NCBI GenBank assembly: GCA_965205595.1
Contig: CBDBHI010000056.1
Location: 16,832 to 80,831 of the forward strand
Direction: 5' to 3'
Length of the DNA: 64,000 nt
From: Bryobacterales bacterium
Lineage (GTDB): Bacteria; Acidobacteriota; Terriglobia; Bryobacterales; UBA6623
This document shows positions 4,434-56,714 of this stretch, in pieces. Numbering within the stretch: the first letter of the stretch is position 1; every line of letters begins with the position of its first letter. The notes under the pieces are model-generated. The model was not told the origin of the DNA and ran no database searches. It was given only the letters and a program-made list of their open reading frames with translations. The position numbers and the translations under genes were made by a program.

Positions 4434-5246
4434 CTAAGGCTGGGACTTCAGGCCACTCGAGCCCATCGCCGAGGGAAACAAGCGGCTGAAGTTTTCTGTC
4501 GTCCGCGCGGCAATCTCTTCGAAGGTTGTATCCGTGACCTCAGCCAGCTTCTTTGCAGTTTCAACCACAAACCGGGGTTCGTTGCGCCGAACCTTTCGAA
4601 ACGGCGCGGGCGTCAGATAGGGCGAGTCGGTCTCGACCAACACGCGCTCAAGCGGAACACCCTGAGCCGTTTCGCGCAACTCGTCCGAGCGGCCGAAGGT
4701 CAGAATTCCTGCGAACGAAATATAGAACCCCATGTCGAGACTCCGCTTCGCTTGTTCGGCGTTGCCCGAAAAGCAATGCATGATGCCGCCAAGCCCTCTC
4801 GCGCTCCAGTATTCGGCGAGCAGCGCCAGAGTGTCGTCCCACGCATCGCGTGTGTGGATGATGATCGGTTTTTTTTGGTGAGCAGCGATCTCCATTTGAT
4901 CTATGAATGCGCGCTTTTGGATGTCGCGCGGCGAGTTGTCGTAGTGATAGTCGAGGCCGATTTCGCCGAAGCCGACGACCTTCGGGTGGCCGCAAAGATT
5001 CGTCAACTCGTCGGCCGCCGCCGAGTCGAACTTCGCCGCGTCGTGTGGATGCACGCCGACGCTTGCGGACACATTGTTATAGGCATCGGCAAGCCGAATG
5101 GCGCACGAGAGATCCGGGGGGCCATCGCCGGTACCGATTGCGAGAAAGTGGCCGACTCCAGCCTCACGCGCCTCCGAAATTACTGCGTCGCGATCCGCGT
5201 CGAACGCTCGCCCGTCGAGGTGGCAGTGTGAGTCGACTAGCCGCAT
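4434..5246 (-). CDS. tatD: TatD-family metal-dependent hydrolase (YcfH/YabD type)
   Basis: N-terminus MRLVDSHCHLD, then IGEIGLDYHY, IIHTRDAWDD and ETDSPYL motifs; 270 aa. It sits downstream of metG, as in many bacteria. Confidence 0.9.
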   Translation of the reverse strand: MRLVDSHCHLDGRAFDADRDAVISEAREAGVGHFLAIGTGDGPPDLSCAIRLADAYNNVSASVGVHPHDAAKFDSAAADELTNLCGHPKVVGFGEIGLDYHYDNSPRDIQKRAFIDQMEIAAHQKKPIIIHTRDAWDDTLALLAEYWSARGLGGIMHCFSGNAEQAKRSLDMGFYISFAGILTFGRSDELRETAQGVPLERVLVETDSPYLTPAPFRKVRRNEPRFVVETAKKLAEVTDTTFEEIAARTTENFSRLFPSAMGSSGLKSQP

Positions 5247-5428: not shown

Positions 5429-7399
5429 TTAGCTCAAGCGGGCGCCGGTCGGCGCATCCTCCAAGAAGCCGGCCAGATACGGCTGGCCGTGATCGATGGA
5501 CGCCGCGATCACCATTCCTTGCGAAATCCGCCCCATCATCTTTCGGGGCGCCAGATTTGCAACGATCGCGACCTTGCGTCCGACCAACTCTTGGGGGTCG
5601 TACGCGCCCGCGATCCCGGCCAAAATCGAGCGCGGCTCGGCTTCGCCGATATCGACGGTTAACGCCAACAGCTTTTTCGACTTCTCGACCTTTTCCGCCG
5701 TCACTACTATACCCACGCGCATATCGACTTTGACGAAATCGTCGAACGCAATCTCGGGGGTATCGATCGTAATCGTCTCGGGCTCTGCAGGCTCGGCTTC
5801 GGCCGGCTTGCCTAGAATTCCGGCCTGATCTTTGAGTGCTTGTTGCTCTAGCTCTTCCATCTGTTTCACCGACTTCTCGACATCGAGTCGAGGGAAAATT
5901 GCTTCCTGATCACCGAGCTTGATGCCCGGCCTGAGTCCGCCCCAGCGCAGCTCGTGCAACTGGAAGTCCCGCAGTGAGGAGCTTTCTCCGAGCATCGCCC
6001 AGACTTTTTCGGAAGCCTGGGGCAACACTGGGTGGACCAATGCCGCTCCAATCCGCAGTACCTCGCCCGAGTTGTAGAGCGTCGCGGCCAGTTGCCTCTT
6101 TGACGCCTCGTCCTCGGCCTTCGCCAAAACCCAGGGTTTGTTTTCAACGATGTATTTGTCCACGCCCGCCAGCATCGCCCAAATTGCTTCCAGCGCCCGC
6201 GAGAATTCGAAATTCTCATAGTGAGCCACGACCTTGTCGATGGTCGCAACAGCGAGAGCTTCTAGGCCGCCATCGTCGCCACCTCCGGCCTCGGGCACAA
6301 CACCGCCATAGAACTTCGCGACCATCGCCGCCGTGCGGCTGGCCAGATTGCCGATGCCATTCGCGAGATCGGAGTTGTAGCGCCGAACCAGAGCATCGAG
6401 CGAAAAATTGCCGTCTTGTCCGAAGACAATTTCGCGCAGCAGGTAGTAGCGAAGACCTTCGATGCCGACAACTTCGTCGATTGGACGCGCCCGCACGATG
6501 TTGCCTTTCGACTTCGACATCTTGTCGCCTTGGAAGATCAGCCAACCGTGCGCCCAAACCTGCTTCGGCAGCGGCAATCCAGCCGCCATCAAGAATGCCG
6601 GCCAATAAACCGAGTGAAATCGAACAATTTCCTTGCCGACCATGTGAACGTCGGCAGGCCACAGCCGTTCCCACTGCTTACGCTCGTCGCCCTCTTCGCC
6701 GTAGCCAATCGCGCTCATATATGTTGTCAGCGCATCAAACCAGACGTAGAAAACATGCGCCGGATCGTTCGGTAGCGGGATGCCCCACTTCAGCGTTGAG
6801 CGGCTGATCGAGAGATCTTTCAGGCCGCCGCGAACAAACGACAGAACTTCATTGCGCCGCGAATCAGGCTGGATAAACTTGGGCTGCGACTCGTAAAGAT
6901 CAATCAGCTTGTCTTGATACTCCGACAACTTGAAGAAGTAGTTCTCTTCAGTCACGGTCGTGATCATCGCCGGGTCGGCCTGCTCAGCCTCTTCGTCGGT
7001 GACGAATGCCTCATCGCCGATGTGATACTTGCCGGTGTAGGAATCTTTGTAGATTGCGCCGTTTTCGAGGCACCGCAAGAAAATTTCCTTGACAGCCTTG
7101 GCGTGTTTCGGGTCGGTCGTTCGGCGATAGAAATCGTACTCCAGTCCGAGTGCATCCCACTCAGAGCGGAACGCGGCCGAGACGCGATCGGTAAATTCCC
7201 GTGGGCTCCAACCCGCCGCTTGCGCCGATCTTTCAACCTTCTGGCCGTGCTCGTCGGTTCCGGTCGTCAGATAAACTTCGTCGCCCATCATGCGCCGAAA
7301 ACGCTTGATGGTATCGGTCACGATCGTCGTGTAAGCGTGGCCGATGTGAGGCGTCGCGTTGACGTAGTAGATCGGCGTCGTTAGATAGTACTTGCCCAT
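5429..7399 (-). CDS. metG: methionine--tRNA ligase with C-terminal tRNA-binding (EMAP/Trbp111-like) domain
   Basis: MGKYYLTTPIYYVNATPHIGH (HIGH motif), KMSKSKGN (KMSKS motif), and C-terminal VKVDMRVGIVVTAEKVEKSKKLLALTVDIGE. I place the start at ATG 7397-7399 (MGKYYL) rather than the upstream 7501 of the ORF track. Confidence 0.93.
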   Translation of the reverse strand: MGKYYLTTPIYYVNATPHIGHAYTTIVTDTIKRFRRMMGDEVYLTTGTDEHGQKVERSAQAAGWSPREFTDRVSAAFRSEWDALGLEYDFYRRTTDPKHAKAVKEIFLRCLENGAIYKDSYTGKYHIGDEAFVTDEEAEQADPAMITTVTEENYFFKLSEYQDKLIDLYESQPKFIQPDSRRNEVLSFVRGGLKDLSISRSTLKWGIPLPNDPAHVFYVWFDALTTYMSAIGYGEEGDERKQWERLWPADVHMVGKEIVRFHSVYWPAFLMAAGLPLPKQVWAHGWLIFQGDKMSKSKGNIVRARPIDEVVGIEGLRYYLLREIVFGQDGNFSLDALVRRYNSDLANGIGNLASRTAAMVAKFYGGVVPEAGGGDDGGLEALAVATIDKVVAHYENFEFSRALEAIWAMLAGVDKYIVENKPWVLAKAEDEASKRQLAATLYNSGEVLRIGAALVHPVLPQASEKVWAMLGESSSLRDFQLHELRWGGLRPGIKLGDQEAIFPRLDVEKSVKQMEELEQQALKDQAGILGKPAEAEPAEPETITIDTPEIAFDDFVKVDMRVGIVVTAEKVEKSKKLLALTVDIGEAEPRSILAGIAGAYDPQELVGRKVAIVANLAPRKMMGRISQGMVIAASIDHGQPYLAGFLEDAPTGARLS

Positions 7400-39867: not shown

Positions 39868-40019
39868 TGATTTAGGTCCCGCTGTTCGAGCGCCATCAGT
39901 ATAGCAATAGGACATGGTCGTCCCCCGTGCTCCGTAGGACGCACGAAATTGTCCTATGGTTTGCATTTTTTGGACGAAATCACCGCCGCGGGACTATACT
40001 GAGGCGTAAGAGACACGCT

Positions 40020-40475
40020 ATGAACAAGCAAGTGAAATTTGTCGCGATTATTGCCGTGATCATCGTCACGCTGGCCTGGATGGGGGTCAGTGGCGTTCAG
40101 CAAAGTGCGACTTACTACGTGACAATCGATGAACTCTTCGCGATGGACGATTCCGAAACCAAGCGAATTCGCGTAGGCGGCGATGTCGAGGTTGGTTCGA
40201 TTGTACGGAGCTCGAGTGAGGTGGCATTCACGATTAGTCAGAAGGACGAAACGATGTCGGAGCCCAAGCTTCTCGATGTCGTCTACACCGGCGACGACCC
40301 GCTGCCCGACACGTTTCGTGACCGTGCCCAAGCGCTTTGTGATGGACGACTAAGGGCCGATGGCAAGTTCGAGGCGAAGAAGATTCAGGCGAAGTGTGCC
40401 TCGAAGTACGAGGCCAAACCCGGCGAAGGCTCTGCCCCGGTCTACGAATCGGAGCCCACAACGGCGTCGGACTGA
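40020..40475 (+). CDS. ccmE: cytochrome c maturation heme chaperone CcmE, CxxxY variant
   Basis: N-terminal TM anchor, OB-fold pattern RIRVGGDVEVGSIV...LPDTFRDRAQALCDGRL..DGKFEAKKIQAKCASKY. Cys126 (TGT 40395-40397) occupies the position of the usual heme-binding His of HxxxY. Confidence 0.85.
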   Translation: MNKQVKFVAIIAVIIVTLAWMGVSGVQQSATYYVTIDELFAMDDSETKRIRVGGDVEVGSIVRSSSEVAFTISQKDETMSEPKLLDVVYTGDDPLPDTFRDRAQALCDGRLRADGKFEAKKIQAKCASKYEAKPGEGSAPVYESEPTTASD

Positions 40476-41060
40476 ACCGGATGTTGAGTTTTTGAGCTGC
40501 GGGCCAAGCTACTTGTTGGCGTGGCCACCGCCGTGGGCCGGATCGTTCGTGGGAGAAACTCGCTGTGGCATCAGCTTGGTAGGAACATCTATGATAGGTA
40601 TTTGTCAAGGAAAAAATGGCGGCAGGCATTTTCGGGTGACCACAAGCTGGGTTCGCCCGCTTATTAGGTAGGTTTTTCGCGGCGGGGCGGGTTCTGTCCA
40701 CTGCGCGTCCGTAGGACGCGGCGCAGCGAACGGTTGACAGGTTCCGCGGCGGCGCGTACGTCGACTGTACGCGGGCGAACACGGCGCTCTCCCGCGGGGG
40801 AGTTTCTGCTTGTCAGTCCACGACGACTACCTTGCCGAATCGCGTCATTTGGCGCCGTTCGAAAAACGCGGCCAGACATCCATTTGCCACCTCGGGCGCC
40901 CGCAAGTGTGATCGCGGGCGCCGTCGCGGAAGATTCAGTTGAGGCCCAAAAACTAGATCCCGCCAGCCCCGAAACAGGCAGCATGGCGTCTACTCACCCG
41001 TGGGCTTTCACGCAGTCCCCTTCGTGCGGGGCCCGGCGGGAAATCGTCGTTTCCAACTCG

Positions 41061-42065
41061 TTACTCGCGCTTCTCGTAGCCCGTGCCACGGCGTTCGACC
41101 GCCAACAACAGCGCTACCAGCTTGCGCGCTAGCGCCACCGTCGCCTGGTTGCGGTGGCCGCGCGCGACTTCGTCCGCGTGCAGCCGCGCCAGTTGGTCGT
41201 TCCAGCGCGGCGCCAACTTCGCCGCCTCGATCAGCACGTGTTGCAAGTGTCCGTTGCGTTGTTTCGACAGCGGTCCGCGGCGCGACTTGCCGGCCGACTC
41301 GTTCAGGCGCGAGCACAGTCCGCAGTAACTCACCGCCTCGTCGATCTTGCCGAAGCGCTTGACGTCGCCTATTTCGAGTGCCCAGGTCAGCGCGGTAATC
41401 GCGCCGACTCCGGGGATCGTGCGCAGCAACTCCACGCGCTTGGCGAGCGACGGGTGGGTGAGCAGCTTGTTCTCGATCTTGCGCACGATTGCGAGTGTTG
41501 CTTCGACGCGATCACGGCTGACGCCGAGCAGCAGCAGGTCGGTTTCGCAGGCTTCGAGTCGATCGACGAAGGGCTCGAAATATCTCTTGGTGTGCAGTTT
41601 CGATTTGGTGTAGGGTTCGCCGAGTTCCATCAACAGCGTGGCGATGCGGTTCTTGTTCCAGACCGCTTGTTGGACGAGGCGGTTGCGAAAGCGCAGCAGG
41701 CGGCGCAGCTCGCGTTGTTGGCGCGGCGGCATCCAGACACGCGGCACCAGGTTGGCGCGGGTGAGGTCGGAAAGTTTGCGGCCGTCGAGCTTGTCGCTCT
41801 TCTTCTTGGCGCGCGTGATGGCCTCGAGCGACGCCGGATGAGCGACGGCCAGATCCACGGCGTGGGGCTTGAGAGTGTCGTAGATCCAGCCGCTGAACAT
41901 GGTGGCTTCGAGCGTGCCCTTCCAAGGCGCGGGCCGCGCGGCGGCCCACGCCTCAAGCTCGGGGCGCAGCGCCTGGATCGTGCCTTCGTCAACGATTGTG
42001 CCGGCGGCGGTCTTGGCGCAATAGGCAATGGTTTTTTTGTGAACGTCGAGTCCGATAAAGTGCAT
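41061..42065 (-). CDS. IS110-family DEDD transposase/recombinase (intact)
   Basis: MHFIGLDVHKKTIAYC... (DEDD N-domain) and LRTIPGVGAITALTWALEIGDVKRF...GLCSRLNESAGKSRRGPLSKQRNGHLQHVLIEAA (Transposase_20-like). I prefer the start at MHFIG (42065) over the ORF-track 42158. Confidence 0.85.
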   Translation of the reverse strand: MHFIGLDVHKKTIAYCAKTAAGTIVDEGTIQALRPELEAWAAARPAPWKGTLEATMFSGWIYDTLKPHAVDLAVAHPASLEAITRAKKKSDKLDGRKLSDLTRANLVPRVWMPPRQQRELRRLLRFRNRLVQQAVWNKNRIATLLMELGEPYTKSKLHTKRYFEPFVDRLEACETDLLLLGVSRDRVEATLAIVRKIENKLLTHPSLAKRVELLRTIPGVGAITALTWALEIGDVKRFGKIDEAVSYCGLCSRLNESAGKSRRGPLSKQRNGHLQHVLIEAAKLAPRWNDQLARLHADEVARGHRNQATVALARKLVALLLAVERRGTGYEKRE

Positions 42066-42300
42066 TTTGTCCTCCTGGGTCTGGGTTTCGGTTCGCCTGC
42101 TTGCCGCAGCCGAGCCCGACTTATTATTCCCGCCAGGAGGACGCTTTTTCTTAATCACCTATGCATTGAAACAGGCAACACGAGGGTTCGTCAGGCTGGA
42201 GAGATTACGATATCGCATGTGCCAGTCCCGGCCCGAAAGTCCGTCTTCTTCCGTTCGGGTCGCCACAGCGAAGCGCAACGCCGCTACTGTGGTCTCTCAA
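42066..42300 (-). ncRNA. candidate IS110 bridge (guide) RNA region in the non-coding left end
   Basis: About 235 nt lie between the recombinase ATG and the point where an unrelated disrupted ORF loses protein-like sequence. Visible stems: CCACAG/CTGTGG (42263-42268 / 42287-42292) and CCCGAA/TTCGGG (42232-42237 / 42254-42259). The assignment is by analogy only. Confidence 0.25.
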
Positions 42301-42677
42301 GTTTCTACCTTGAATGATCCGCAACCAAGGCGAGCAGATATAGGGCTCAGTCGGCTTCCAGTGGTGCTTGATGATGTTGCTATCAGCATGGCGACGCTCA
42401 GCCCAATCAACACGTTTCTGACGCGAAACACAAAAGTCATCGGGATGAGTAGTGCCCGCGTAGAACGATAGTTGGATCGATTTAGGTAGCGAAAATTCCT
42501 TCGTCCGAACAGCCGTCGTCGATCTCAAAGCCAGCGAGTCGATTCAGCTGCTTCTCGCCAATAACAATATTGCACCTCGCCCCGATGGCTTTGTTATTGA
42601 AGAGACACACGCTTATATTTCGGCCCTCGGGGACGAAACGGCTTTGTTGGAGCCAGCGACGGTCTCAGTCTGAAGGG

Positions 42678-42926
42678 CTAGACGGTTTGAGCGAAATCAT
42701 ACACCGGCGTCAGCACCTCGCGAGTTGGCTTTCCGGCTTCGATGAGGCGGTCGATCTGCTGTGAAACTTCAGCGGTGAGCCAGACATGACCGCATTGCTC
42801 GCATGTCTGGACCGGAACATGCTCGAATCGATGAACCTGCTCGCCCCAGGGCACGGTGTGAGTAATCGTTTTTGCGCGCAATGTGCCGCCACACTCGGCG
42901 CAGATATTGGTGTTCGTACGGGGCAT
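42678..42926 (-). CDS. YgiT/MqsA-type zinc-finger antitoxin-like protein
   Basis: MPRTNTNICAECGGTL...VPVQTCEQCGHVWL carries two CxxC pairs. Its start lies 5 nt after the stop of the upstream DUF4258 gene. Confidence 0.7.
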   Translation of the reverse strand: MPRTNTNICAECGGTLRAKTITHTVPWGEQVHRFEHVPVQTCEQCGHVWLTAEVSQQIDRLIEAGKPTREVLTPVYDFAQTV

Positions 42927-42930
42927 GGAT

Positions 42931-43164
42931 CTAGTGAGTTCTCCGTGTCCACGGATCGACCCAGACATTTGAATCATACCAGTGAACAGTGACAATATAC
43001 GCTTTGCCGCCATCAAACGCGCAGGAAACGTAGAGCGGATCGCCATTGACATAAGCCATGAAGAGCGCCTTCGGAAAGGGCCGGTCGTCGGGATACCGCT
43101 CGATCACATCGCCAGTTGTGACGACTTGTTTTATGTCCGCGTCGTGGATACGTCGCTCTCCCAT
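42931..43164 (-). CDS. DUF4258-domain toxin-like protein
   Basis: DIKQVVTTGDVIERYPDDRPFPKALFMAYVNGDPLYVSCAFD...IVTVHWYDSNVW fits the DUF4258 pattern. Confidence 0.75.
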   Translation of the reverse strand: MGERRIHDADIKQVVTTGDVIERYPDDRPFPKALFMAYVNGDPLYVSCAFDGGKAYIVTVHWYDSNVWVDPWTRRTH

Positions 43165-53352: not shown

Positions 53353-53689
53353 GTAGAGTAGGGGAGGGTCCCGCAAGTGGGCGTAACCTCCCCCCTCGTC
53401 GAACCGGACTTGCGGATTTCCCGCATCCGGCTCTCCAACAAGCTCTCGCCTTGGGCATGCGCGGGTCGAGACTAGTGCGAGCGGTTCAGCTCCAGCAGCC
53501 CCTGGCGTTGGAAAAAGGAATACCAAGGCTCGTCCTTCGGCGGTCGAAACCGGTGCTGTCCCCGCCGTCGCAGATGTCGCATGAAACGCCACCGCAGGTA
53601 CCAGTCCAGCTCCCAGTAGGCACCCCGCGGATAGCCCCTCGAAAAGTAGTTCGCCCAACCTCTCATCTGTCGGTTTAGCCGCCCGATCA
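53353..53689 (-). mobile_element. group II intron 3' fragment (copy A): end of the RT maturase domain, domain V, complete domain VI
   Basis: It encodes ...[45 protein letters not shown]...ELNRSH*. Domain V is GAGCCGGATGCGGGAAATCCGCAAGTCCGGTTC (53433->53401). Domain VI has a bulged A and ends ...CCCCTACTCTAC at 53353. Confidence 0.75.
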
Positions 53690-53693
53690 CCAA

Positions 53694-55137
53694 GGGGCTG
53701 TGAAAAAACCTCCCCTAACTCGAGAATCGGGCGTAGCAAGCTACGCCCCTACAAATAACTTGCGTGTTATCAGCGCTGTAGGGGTGCGACATGTCGCACC
53801 CTCGGGCGACCGTAGGCTCGGCTACGCCGCGAGTTCGGCGGCGCGCGCCGCCGAAAGTTCCTCCTGCGCGGTCTCCATGTTGAAGTAGGCCCGTTCGGCC
53901 AGCTGCCAGCGTTCGTGCTGCTCGACCAGCAACGCGCCGACCAGCCGTTCGCACGAGGCCCGGTTCGGAAACACTCCCACCACCCGGGTGCGCTGCTTGA
54001 TCGTCTTCATCAGCCGCTCGGCCATGTTCGTCGACGTCAATCGCTTGCGATGGCTCTCCGGGAATCCCAAGACCGTCAGGCAATCCTCCAGGCCCGCGCG
54101 CAGCATCGCGGCCACTTTCGGCCGCCGCCGCTCCCACTTCTCCGCCATCTCTTCGCCGATCCGCAGACAGCCTTGGCGGTCCGCCGCCGCGAATACCGCC
54201 GCCAAGTCACGCAGCACTTCGCGGTACTCGGTATGCGCCACTTTGCGCGCGATCTCGCGTTTGAAATGCACGCGGCAGCGCTGCCACCGCACCCCTTGGA
54301 AGTGTTTCTCCAGCGCCGCCCGGATCCCTGAGTGCGCGTCTGAAATGACCAGTTTGACGCCCGTCAGTCCGCGCTGCTTGAGCCCTTGCAATACCGACCC
54401 CCAGGTCTCGAGCGATTCGCTGTCGCCGTTACGCCAGTCGAGTATTTCCCGGCCGCCCTCAGCGTTGAAGCCGATCACCACCAACACCGCTTCGCTGCTG
54501 ATCGAGCCTCCAGCACGAACTTTCTCATAACGGGCGTCGATCATCAGGTAGGGATACTCGCTCGTCAAGCGCCGCCCGCGCATCGCGTCCAGCTTCTCGT
54601 CAAGTTCCGCCGCGACGCGCGAAACCGTCATCGCTGAGATGTCGAGACCGCACATCTTCTCCAGAACCGTCTCGACGCGCCGCGTCGAGACGCCTTGGAA
54701 ATACATCTCGCTGCAAGCCACCAGCAACGCTCGTTCGCTGCGTTGCCAGCGGGCGAACAGCGACGGGTGGTAGGGCTCGCAATCGCGCACTTGCGGTACG
54801 TCGAAATGCAGTTCGCCGTTGCGCGTCTTGAACGTCCGCGGCTTCTTGCCGTTGCGCCGTTCCGCGCCGGCTCTCGATTCGTTGGTAGGGCTGCGCCCCC
54901 AGATGCTGGTTGACTTCCGCCTGCATTGCTTGTTCGATCAGGGCTGCGAGCAGCTGCTTGACTCCTTCGTCTTGTTGGAACAGCTCTTGCGCCAGTTCCA
55001 GGATCTTGTCACTGTGGTCTTGGGTCATCGTTGTCGTCTCCTCTAGACGGGTTGTTTGGTTCTTCCCATCGTGAGCGCCGACCGATGACCCGGTCTACTC
55101 CGCGTCAAACATTTGCCAGAAGTATTGTTACAGAACC
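53694..55137 (-). mobile_element. IS256-family insertion sequence (no target duplication)
   Basis: Imperfect terminal repeats are GGGGCTGTGAAAAAACCTCC (53694-) and the reverse complement of ...GTTACAGAACC (-55137), matching at about 13/20. Both flanks are group II intron sequence, but from non-contiguous positions. Confidence 0.7.
53822..55028 (-). pseudogene. IS256-family transposase with a +1 frameshift near 54860-54880
   Basis: The N-terminal frame reads MTQDHSDKILELAQELFQQDEGVKQLLAALIEQAMQAEVNQHLGAQPYQR. The expected continuation ERRNGKKPRTFKTRNGELHFDVPQVRDCEPYHPSLFARWQRSERALL...MYFQGVSTRRV is in another frame. Confidence 0.85.

Positions 55138-56714
<1,577 letters not shown>

What the first reader, a model, noticed from the sequence alone, without database searches (positions are those of the whole stretch)
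42066..42300. Candidate bridge RNA in the 5' non-coding end of the intact IS110-family element
Established knowledge: IS110-family DEDD recombinases are guided by a structured non-coding RNA encoded in the element's non-coding end. It lies upstream of the gene in IS110-type elements and downstream in IS1111-type elements. Its two internal loops base-pair with target and donor DNA. Seen here: an intact recombinase gene (41061..42065). About 235 nt of non-coding sequence lie upstream of it before the sequence becomes the 3' part of an unrelated, disrupted ORF (about 42300 upward). That segment contains at least two clear stems: CCACAG...CTGTGG at 42263-42292 and CCCGAA...TTCGGG at 42232-42259. 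Downstream of the gene there is also an unusually long 585-nt non-coding stretch (40476-41060) with strong GC stems, for example GGCGCCCGC-9nt-GCGGGCGCC at 40895-40922. The RNA could lie on either side. Element boundaries are not visible by eye because IS110 elements lack terminal repeats.
Basis: partly seen in the sequence, partly recalled or inferred. Interest (0 to 1): 0.65.

Follow-up and report, generated by a model that had tools for sequence, protein, structure and literature searches.

The report
Bridge RNA lies downstream, not upstream
This mobile element does encode a guide ("bridge" or "seek") RNA, but it lies just after the recombinase gene at 40830-41049 and not in the flagged upstream stretch, making this an ordinary new member of the IS1111 type.

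Summary
The recombinase gene (41061-42065, minus strand) is intact and the two flagged upstream stems exist. Those stems lie outside the element.

Ten copies encoding the identical recombinase, four ~90%-identical copies and two uninterrupted target sites fix the ends. The element runs from 42170 to 40587 and is flanked on each side by a GT core. The upstream non-coding end is therefore only 105 nt; the downstream end is 474 nt, which is the IS1111 layout.

About 20 nt after the stop codon lies a ~190-nt structured segment (about 40851-41040).
- It is conserved in about 60 relatives whose recombinases share 45-56% identity.
- Five helices show compensatory changes: 91% of cells paired against 35-45% for slid controls.
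- A covariance model built without the window's family hits the window once, at 40830-41049, with 93 bits.

Its two internal loops carry the expected guides. Loop 1 matches each element's own left and right flanks (permutation z = 13 and 12). Loop 2 matches the element's own ends.

The target is TGCCnGTCCCC, found at both ends of a ~64-bp palindromic repeat.

Verdict: a new member of a known kind.

The parts
40587..42170 (-). The insertion sequence proper: 1584 bp, or 1586 bp with one copy of the GT core. It reads 5'-TTCAATGCATAGG ... CCTATCATAGAT-3' on the minus strand.
   Evidence: Similarity to copies in at least 7 different contexts stops here. Uninterrupted target repeats L005:3470-3620 and L090 read left flank + GT + right flank.
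42171..42172 (-). GT core at the left junction. The second copy is at 40585-40586, at the right junction.
   Evidence: GT appears once in the empty sites and on both sides of the inserted element. The RNA carries GU on the 3' strand of loop 1 and AC on its 5' strand.
41061..42065 (-). DEDD recombinase gene, 334 aa.
   Evidence: Pfam PF01548 + PF02371. NCBIfam NF033542. Aligns to ISCro4 (9t56) and IS621 (8wt6). The identical protein is indexed in 85 blocks of the collection.
42066..42170 (-). Left end / 5' leader, 105 nt. It contains the left subterminal inverted repeat ATGCATAGGT (42157-42166). It also contains a long-range hairpin, GTCCTCCTGG (42133-42142) paired with CCAGGAGGAC (42069-42078), that masks the Shine-Dalgarno sequence.
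   Evidence: Fold. The same architecture with different sequences in relatives. Repeat covariation.
40830..41049 (-). Full match of the covariance model of the bridge/seek RNA. The structured core is about 40851-41040.
   Evidence: Model R1 was built only from relatives with 45-56% recombinase identity. It gives one hit in 64 kb: 93.1 bits, E about 1e-31.
40959..41040 (-). Target-binding domain, 82 nt. Helix P1 (41027-41040 with 40959-40971) encloses loop 1 and hairpin P2 (40985-41014).
   Evidence: P1 has 13 pairs, 12 of them with compensatory changes, and 98% of cells paired.
41015..41024 (-). Right target guide plus core complement, CGAAGGGG-AC. It is antisense to GT-CCCC(TT) on the top strand of the right flank.
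   Evidence: Reverse complement of this strand against right flanks across relatives: 347/549 matches versus a null of 233 +/- 9.7, 0 of 5000 permutations as high. Window family flanks read GT-CCCC....
40972..40981 (-). Left target guide plus core, CUGCCU-GU-UU. It has the same sense as the left flank TTGCCT-GT-TT.
   Evidence: Against left flanks: 324/531 matches versus a null of 184 +/- 10.7, 0 of 5000 permutations as high. The informative positions are -6 to -1.
40930..40939 (-). Right donor guide, ACUGAAUCUU. The UGAA pairs with the top strand TTCA at the start of the left end.
   Evidence: Variable base against position +3 of the left end: C-G in 54 rows, G-C in 15, U-A in L061, L016 and L050.
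40887..40929 (-).
   Evidence: Every pair of P3 and P4 has compensatory changes.
40875..40885 (-). Left donor guide plus core, AAAUGGAU-GU-C. It has the same sense as the right end CATGGAT-GT.
   Evidence: Invariant where the right end is invariant. It changes together with the right end in the GGAA families and in L061 (AUAGAU with ATAGAT).
40851..40873 (-). Hairpin P5. Its 5' GGCC can alternatively pair with the linker GGCC (about 40943-40946) to close loop 2.
   Evidence: P5: 7 pairs, 5 with compensatory changes. Alternative stem: 4 pairs, 1 with compensatory change. The MFE fold uses the alternative; the centroid uses P5.
40587..40633 (-). Right terminus. It holds an AU-rich hairpin (40611-40633), the -35-like TTGACA (40603-40608), the right subterminal inverted repeat ACCTATCAT (40591-40599), and the end CATAGAT. 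This copy has A where all others in its family have G.
   Evidence: TTGAC lies about 16 nt from the right end in nearly all relatives, and the repeats covary. No sigma-70-like promoter is found inside the integrated element.
42173..42229 (-). Left part of the target repeat, GGGACTGGCA...GTGTTGCCT. The right part continues at 40575-40584 (TCCTACCAAG) and beyond.
   Evidence: The same flank is shared by L002-L005 and L009. The intact repeat is in L005 and L090.

Best explanation
The window holds one intact copy of an uncharacterised IS1111-type insertion sequence (IS110 family). Its guide RNA is encoded about 20 nt downstream of the recombinase stop codon, on the same (minus) strand.

The RNA has two domains.
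- Domain 1 (82 nt, 40959-41040) is a stem enclosing an internal loop. The loop's 5' strand is complementary to the top strand of the right half of the target (GT-CCCC...). Its 3' strand has the same sequence as the left half (..TGCCT-GT), so it pairs with the bottom strand.
- Domain 2 (about 40851-40940) does the same for the joined ends of the excised circle. One strand reads the start of the left end (TTCA). The other repeats the right end (ATGGAT-GT).

Inferred by analogy with IS621, ISEc11 and ISKpn4:
- The element excises as a circle. Joining the ends creates a promoter (-35 TTGACA in the right end, TG-extended TTCAAT in the left end) that drives the recombinase and the RNA.
- Recombinase dimers loaded with the two loops bring circle and target together and exchange strands at the GT core.

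The preferred target, TGCCnGTCCCC, occurs at both inverted ends of a ~64-bp palindromic repeat. This explains why copies sit in that repeat in either orientation.

Shown here: the ends, the core, the conserved structure, guide-flank covariation and guide-end covariation.

Inferred: transcription, RNA-protein binding, the circle and its promoter, and the order of strand exchange.
For: Ends and core:
- Similarity between copies stops at the same bases in different contexts.
- Two uninterrupted repeats read left flank-GT-right flank.

Layout:
- The left end is 105 nt and the right end 474 nt.
- Subterminal inverted repeats ATG(C)ATAGGT / ACCTAT-CAT covary among relatives.
- The recombinase is 334 aa.

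Conservation: nhmmer finds the first ~200-270 nt of the right end in about 60 loci whose recombinases are only 45-56% identical.

Structure, on 36 relatives without the window family:
- 91.3% of cells paired against 35-45% when partners are slid.
- 35 of 38 pairs show compensatory change.
- 0 of 500 shuffles reach the observed values.

Independent model: R1 hits the window once, at 40830-41049 (-), with 93.1 bits.

Guides:
- Permutation tests give z = 13.1 (left) and 11.8 (right), 0 of 5000 as high. They still hold without the window family.
- Donor-guide covariation: C-G, G-C and U-A at left-end position +3; GGAU/GGAT against GGAA/GAA; AUAGAU/ATAGAT.

Agreement with published work:
- The strand order (top-strand complement 5' of bottom-strand complement) and the position right after the stop codon match published IS1111 seekRNAs. 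So does an 82-nt target domain (PMC11187229).
- Durrant et al. place IS1111 bridge RNAs in the right end (PMC11208160).
Against: - There are no expression data. Transcription of this segment and binding to the recombinase are not shown.
- Rfam 15 gave no hit, and the published IS110/IS1111 models could not be run.
- The single-sequence fold is not more stable than shuffles (z = -0.8), so the structure rests on covariation only.
- In the window family the right target guide matches the observed flanks only over CCCC, plus T in some copies. In the window copy itself (TCCT) two of those four pairs would be G-T wobbles.
- The right donor guide pairs at only 5 of 7 positions, with a U-T mismatch at the second core base.
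- How loop 2 is closed on its outer side is ambiguous: P5 or a linker stem.
- The window copy has G-to-A in its right end (CATAGAT). It would pair with the guide only as a G-T wobble.
Confidence: 0.9

Rival explanations
1. The bridge RNA lies in the 5' non-coding end (42066-42300), as in IS110-type elements such as IS621.
For: The two flagged stems are real, and the interval folds better than shuffles (z = -2.5). IS110-group elements do carry the RNA upstream.
Against: - The element ends at 42170/42172, so 42173-42300, including both stems, is flanking DNA.
- The remaining 105 nt are a leader with a hairpin that masks the ribosome-binding site.
- Outside the window family and its ~90%-identical relatives, nhmmer finds the left end only weakly in one relative.
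- The covariance model and Rfam find nothing there.
- All four guide segments are accounted for in the 3' end.
Confidence: 0.02
2. The conserved 3' segment is not a guide RNA. It is a 3'-UTR stability or terminator element, or a set of DNA-level recombinase binding sites that repeat the element's ends.
For: - The segment contains exact copies of end sequences (ATGGATGT, GTTT), which internal binding sites would also show.
- There are no transcription data here.
- One terminator-like site overlaps it at 40959-40978.
Against: - Internal binding sites or a UTR element would not track the flanking host DNA. Here the variable loop strands follow each element's own left and right flanks.
- Compensatory changes in five helices point to a folded single strand.
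- Related IS1111 elements have been shown by experiment to make such an RNA, which binds the transposase and is needed for transposition (PMC11187229).
Confidence: 0.05
3. The copy in the window is a dead relic: the RNA and gene are present but the element can no longer move.
For: - Its right end reads CATAGAT where all other copies in its family read CATGGAT.
- Its right flank (TCCT) is a poorer match to the guide than in other copies.
Against: - The gene encodes exactly the protein found in many other copies.
- The RNA region is identical to that of most copies with the same protein (93.1 bits in each; L009 differs slightly).
- The same G-versus-A difference between guide and right end is seen in several relatives (ATGGAA guide with ATAGAA end, 5 rows). 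It is compatible with a G-T wobble.
Confidence: 0.15

Closest known systems
IS1111-family seekRNAs of ISEc11, ISKpn4, ISPa11 and ISPst6 (Siddiquee et al. 2024, PMC11187229)
   Same: - The RNA is encoded in the long non-coding region directly after the transposase stop codon.
- The target domain is about 82 nt.
- The segment complementary to the top strand lies 5' of the segment complementary to the bottom strand.
- Subterminal inverted repeats are present.
- The recombinase is 330-350 aa.
- Targets are folded repeats (REP, attC).
- A promoter is expected only on the circle junction.
   Different: - The recombinase is only distantly related to the named insertion sequences. The best plasmid hit with a named IS, IS1328, is about 33% identical.
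- The core is GT and the target is TGCCnGTCCCC at the ends of a ~64-bp repeat.
- The right end carries about 240 extra nt that are absent from relatives.
- No experiments exist.
IS621 bridge RNA (Durrant et al. 2024, PMC11208160; Hiraizumi et al. 2024, PMC11208158)
   Same: - Two internal loops, one for the target and one for the donor.
- Each loop reads both strands around a 2-nt core.
- DEDD/Ser recombinase (aligns to 8wt6, E = 3e-7).
- Insertion adds no duplication beyond the core.
   Different: - In IS621 the RNA is upstream in the left end; here it is downstream.
- The order of the strand-specific guides is reversed.
- The core is CT in IS621 and GT here.
- IS621 has only a 2-3-bp subterminal repeat; here it is about 9-10 bp.
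- The 2-nt handshake guides described for IS621 have no clear counterpart here. The bases after the core complement do not match the opposite DNA.
IS4321/IS5075, ISPpu9 and ISPa11 as insertion sequences that target inverted-repeat or palindromic elements
   Same: Orientation-specific insertion at a fixed position within a repeated palindromic sequence or the terminal inverted repeat of another element.
   Different: Here the same 11-nt target is present at both inverted ends of one short repeat, so insertions occur in both orientations (L001, L007 and L010 versus the window, L002-L005 and L009). What the repeat is remains unknown.

Membership tests
IS110 family (DEDD RNA-guided recombinase elements) | Recombinase with an N-terminal DEDD RuvC-like domain (PF01548) and a C-terminal Transposase_20 domain (PF02371) | tested here: met
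   Pfam E = 4e-15 and 4e-19. NCBIfam NF033542 at 180 bits against a cut-off of 140.
IS110 family (DEDD RNA-guided recombinase elements) | Catalytic D, E, D, D and the C-terminal serine | tested here: met
   Alignment to ISCro4 (9t56). IGLDV, LEAT and KSDKLDGR align with IGIDV, MEAT and KTDAVDAR. NES-AG aligns with YES-GS. Read by eye from that alignment; no structure was made.
IS110 family (DEDD RNA-guided recombinase elements) | No terminal inverted repeats; site-specific insertion without a target duplication beyond a short core | tested here: met
   The empty sites in L005 and L090 equal left flank + GT + right flank.
IS1111 subgroup | Long non-coding region downstream of the gene, short one upstream | tested here: met
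   Left end 105 nt, right end 474 nt.
IS1111 subgroup | Subterminal inverted repeats of 7-17 bp | tested here: met
   ATG(C)ATAGGT at 42157-42166 and ACCTAT-CAT at 40591-40599: 9 bp plus one unpaired base. They covary in relatives as ATAAGTA, ATAGGTC, ATACGTT and ATAAGGAC.
IS1111 subgroup | Transposase of 330-350 aa with the C-terminal motif GL-P----S(T)G | tested here: inconclusive
   The length of 334 aa fits. The motif reads GLCSRLNESAG (S for P, SA for SG). The paper notes occasional TA variants. No phylogeny with ISfinder sequences was possible.
Bridge RNA / seekRNA | Conserved structured RNA in the non-coding end, supported by covariation | tested here: met
   (91% paired, 35 of 38 pairs compensatory). 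An independent model hits at 93 bits.
Bridge RNA / seekRNA | Target loop whose two strands match the two strands of the target on either side of the core | tested here: met
   Permutation tests on 59 and 61 guide/flank pairs give z = 13.1 and 11.8. In the window: CUGCCU-GU against TTGCCT-GT, and GGGG-AC against GT-(C/T)CC(C/T).
Bridge RNA / seekRNA | Donor loop whose two strands match the joined right and left ends | tested here: met
   AAAUGGAU-GU equals the right end CATGGAT-GT. UGAA pairs with the left end TTCA. Both covary among relatives. The right donor guide pairs at only 5 of 7 positions.
Bridge RNA / seekRNA | IS1111 order: top-strand complement 5' of bottom-strand complement | tested here: met
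   The right target guide (41015-41024) is 5' of the left target guide (40972-40981) on the RNA. Compare PMC11187229.
Bridge RNA / seekRNA | Hit by the published IS110/IS1111 bridge-RNA covariance models | not testable with these tools
   Those models are not available here. Rfam 15 gave no hit in 40000-43000 even at E up to 10.
Bridge RNA / seekRNA | The RNA is made, binds the recombinase and is required for transposition | not testable with these tools
   No expression or biochemical data. Shown only for other IS1111 members.

The most novel reading that the evidence does not exclude
The window family differs from all its relatives by about 240 extra, GC-rich, hairpin-forming nucleotides between the guide RNA and the right terminus (about 40634-40829). 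These include a spot where otherwise identical copies differ (GTGG / CCGG / CCAG, about 40641-40644). The segment has also been hit by other insertion sequences at nearly the same place in two lineages (L006; L011 and L014). It could be an added functional module, such as a second small RNA or a regulatory or processing element for the guide, rather than filler. Separately, the element's habit of inserting into both inverted ends of a short palindromic repeat could mean that it preys on the ends of another mobile element.
Probability: 0.1. Interest if true: 0.5.

Novelty: new member of a known kind. Interest (0 to 1): 0.35.

Why it matters
The finding corrects an annotation: the guide RNA of this element is downstream of the gene, not upstream. 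It also gives base-level coordinates for all four guide segments, the core and the ends.

The data set doubles as a natural read-out of the guide code for one IS1111 clade: 6 nt on the left, a GT core and about 8 nt on the right. It comes from about 35 different guides and about 60 insertion sites in Planctomycetota-like, Desulfuromonadales, Geobacter and Acidobacteriota genomes. That could help in choosing and reprogramming new bridge recombinases.

Biologically the element is an ordinary representative of a mechanism described in 2024.

Tried and rejected
1. First end estimate. I first took the ends as ...CCT|GTTTC and ...GTCCCC| with a CT (or CC) core. Under that reading the right target guide did not match the flanks. 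Uninterrupted repeats (L005, L090) showed that GTCCCC belongs to the target and that the core is GT. That removed the conflict.

2. The variable tetranucleotide. CAGCTT[GTGG/CCGG/CCAG]TCACC in the distal right end contains CAGCTTG, which is complementary to the right flank CAAGCTG. I considered it a guide. The variants do not follow the flanks, and a 7-nt match is not beyond chance, so I dropped it.

3. Rfam scans at gathering and E-value thresholds found nothing relevant.

4. A search for a second copy of the element or of the target repeat in the window found none beyond chance. There is one near-target on the other arm of the same repeat, at 42220-42230.

5. Regex anchoring of the guides was unreliable. 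I replaced it with extraction from the model-based alignment A5.

6. Single-sequence thermodynamics of the RNA are not significant and are not used as evidence.

7. A plasmid tblastn for a named close relative found none above 55% identity.

Full report
**What is at the flagged coordinates**

The ORF 41061-42065 on the minus strand is intact. It encodes a 334-aa protein with the DEDD_Tnp_IS110 and Transposase_20 domains. It also matches NCBIfam NF033542, 'IS110 family RNA-guided transposase', at 180 bits against a cut-off of 140. It aligns to the solved ISCro4 and IS621 recombinases, with the catalytic acidic residues and the serine in place.

They appear in the minimum-energy fold of 42066-42300 (z = -2.5). 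Rfam 15 finds nothing in 40000-43000, even at E up to 10.

**Where the element ends**

The window has only one copy. The exact protein is encoded in many public assemblies, however. I fetched ten such copies (L001-L010; seven lie on a single 3.7-Mb contig and some are repeats of the same insertion). I also fetched four ~90%-identical copies from a Bryobacterales genome and about 75 loci whose recombinases are 45-66% identical.

Similarity between the window and the other copies stops at the same bases whatever the context. I first read the ends as ...CCT|GTTTC and ...GTCCCC|. Six copies share a further ~58 nt on the left, which turned out to be a repeated target sequence.

Two uninterrupted copies of that repeat settle the matter.
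- L005:3470-3620 reads ...CTCGTGTTGCCT-GT-CCCCCACCAAGC....
- L090 reads ...GTGTTGCCT-GT-CCCGTACCAAGCTGATG....

Each is the left flank, one GT, and the right flank of the occupied sites. The element is therefore TTCAATGCATAGG...CCTATCATGGAT (window 42170 down to 40587, 1584 bp) with a GT core on each side (42171-42172 and 40585-40586).

The upstream non-coding end is 105 nt and the downstream end 474 nt. 42173-42229 is the left arm of the target repeat.

**Which subgroup**

A short left end, a long right end, subterminal inverted repeats and a 330-350-aa transposase define the IS1111 subgroup. In that subgroup the guide RNA lies downstream of the gene (PMC11208160; PMC11187229).

All of these features are present here. 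The repeats are ATG(C)ATAGGT at 42157-42166 and ACCTAT-CAT at 40591-40599. They change together in relatives, as ATAAGTA, ATAGGTC, ATACGTT and ATAAGGAC. The C-terminal motif reads GLCSRLNESAG rather than GL-P----SG, so that single criterion is left open.

**The RNA**

nhmmer with the right end finds its first ~200-270 nt in about 60 of the distant loci. The left end is found, beyond the window family and its ~90%-identical relatives, only weakly in one relative.

The aligned segments share a fixed plan.
- Helix P1 encloses an internal loop and hairpin P2.
- A linker follows.
- Then comes a second loop, bounded by helices P3/P4 and hairpin P5.

RNAalifold recovers P1-P4. I wrote out P1-P5 on an alignment of 36 relatives that excludes the window family. 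On it, 91.3% of cells form standard pairs against 35-45% when partners are slid. Compensatory changes appear in 35 of 38 pairs. No shuffle out of 500 reaches the observed values.

A covariance model built from those 36 sequences alone hits the 64-kb window once, at 40830-41049 on the minus strand. The score is 93.1 bits and E is about 1e-31; the E-value is rough because calibration was shortened.

The fold of the window sequence alone is no better than shuffles (z = -0.8), so the structure rests on comparison between sequences, not on energy.

**The guides**

I aligned all 84 model matches and extracted the loop strands and each element's junctions.

Loop 1:
- The 3' strand ends in GU-UU. Upstream of that it repeats the host sequence to the left of each element.
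- The 5' strand ends in AC. Upstream of that it is the reverse complement of the host sequence to the right.

Over 59 and 61 distinct guide/flank pairs (35 distinct guides) the matches are 324/531 against a permutation mean of 184 +/- 10.7, and 347/549 against 233 +/- 9.7. No permutation out of 5000 is as high. The result holds without the window family. The signal covers positions -6 to -1 on the left and +1 to about +8 on the right.

Loop 2:
- The 3' strand, AAAUGGAU-GU-C, repeats the right end CATGGAT-GT. It changes with it: GGAA guides go with GAA ends, and AUAGAU goes with ATAGAT in L061.
- The 5' strand carries U(C/G/U)AA opposite the left end TT(G/C/A)A. The counts are C-G in 54 rows, G-C in 15, and U-A in three lineages.

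The order, with the top-strand complement 5' of the bottom-strand complement, is the one reported for IS1111 seekRNAs. The P1-enclosed domain is 82 nt, the size of the ISEc11 peak seekRNA.

**The window copy in detail**

- The left target guide CUGCCU-GU (40972-40981) faces the left flank TTGCCT-GT.
- The right target guide GGGG-AC (within 41015-41024) faces GT-TCCT. In sister copies it faces GT-CCCC.
- The right donor guide is at 40930-40939.
- The left donor guide is at 40875-40885.

The family's target is thus about TGCCn-GT-CCCC. That 11-mer occurs at both inverted ends of the ~64-bp repeat (GGGGACTGGCA...TGCCTGTCCCC). This explains why L001, L007 and L010 carry the element in the opposite orientation within the same repeat.

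Beyond CCCC the right guide (UUCGUG-complement) does not match the observed flanks, so the effective match is about 11-12 bp. The window copy also has CATAGAT where the rest of its family has CATGGAT. With the guide this gives a G-T wobble, a combination also seen in several relatives.

**Expression (inferred)**

No sigma-70-like promoter is found inside the integrated element. Nearly all relatives keep TTGAC about 16 nt from the right end. Joining the ends would give TTGACA, 18 nt, then TTCAAT preceded by TG.

A promoter made only on the excised circle is what has been reported for IS1111 and IS110 elements. The recombinase and the RNA would then be made from one transcript. This, the RNA-protein complex and the order of strand exchange are taken from IS621, ISEc11 and related work. 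They are not shown here.

**Comparison and verdict**

The element works like the IS1111-type seekRNA/bridge RNA systems and passes every membership feature I could test.

It differs from IS621 in four ways: the RNA is on the other side of the gene, the strand order of the guides is reversed, the core is GT rather than CT, and the subterminal repeats are long. I could not see counterparts of the 2-nt handshake guides of IS621.

No closely related named insertion sequence turned up, so it is a new member of a known kind.

Noticed in passing
42069-42142 (-): The 5' leader forms a long-range hairpin: GTCCTCCTGG (42133-42142) pairs with CCAGGAGGAC (42069-42078), which contains the Shine-Dalgarno sequence. 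Relatives keep the same arrangement with different sequences, for example GGAAGCCTCC...GGAGGCTTCC, GGAGACCTCC...GGAGGTCTCC and GATCTCCTTTC...GAAAGGAGATC. This looks like conserved translational masking of the recombinase.
   Followed up: partly
42173-42229 and 40520-40584; L005:3495-3570; L090: The target is a ~64-bp repeat with inverted ends, GGGGAC(T/A)GGCA...TGCC(T/A)GTCCCC, that recurs in these genomes. Whether it is a REP-like element, a miniature transposon or the end of a larger element is unknown. The window holds a second, unoccupied near-target at 42220-42230 (TGCCAGTCCCG).
   Followed up: partly
about 40634-40829 (-): About 240 nt of the right end are specific to the window family and its 90% relatives. 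They are GC-rich with strong hairpins, for example CTGCGCCGCGTCCTACGGACGCGCAG. Relatives have only ~100 nt between the RNA and the terminus.
   Followed up: no
about 40641-40644 (-): Otherwise identical copies differ at one tetranucleotide: CAGCTT[GTGG/CCGG/CCAG]TCACC. It does not correlate with the flanks. No explanation.
   Followed up: partly
L006:5374-7930; L011:4363-6218; L014:~4362 (window equivalent 40692-40722): Other DNA has been inserted into the right end of this element at nearly the same place in separate copies. In L006 it is ~2.5 kb carrying IS21-like genes. In L011 it is ~1.85 kb that I did not examine. L014 breaks at the same point.
   Followed up: no
53353-53435 and 55130-55193 (-): Two Rfam group II intron (domain V/VI) hits above the gathering score, 51.7 and 43.2 bits, about 1.8 kb apart.
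   Followed up: no
42678-43164 (-): A small gene pair upstream of the insertion site. One is a DUF4258 protein (42931-43164). It overlaps a 124-aa protein with weak zinc-ribbon matches (42678-43052). The arrangement looks like a toxin-antitoxin pair.
   Followed up: no
L053:4310-4511 (+) and 4948-5151 (-); L049:4310-4510 and 6068-6269: In Acidobacteriaceae relatives two RNA modules lie close together, head to head in L053 and in tandem in L049. This suggests nested or adjacent copies.
   Followed up: no
L011-L014 (Bryobacterales MAG) versus the window and L001-L010 (contexts with planctomycete-type PSD/PSCyt genes): Copies of the element that are ~90% identical occur in genomes assigned to different phyla. 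This suggests recent horizontal spread. The loop-1 guides differ between the two sets (CUGCCU versus GCGCGUU), and so do their insertion sites.
   Followed up: partly
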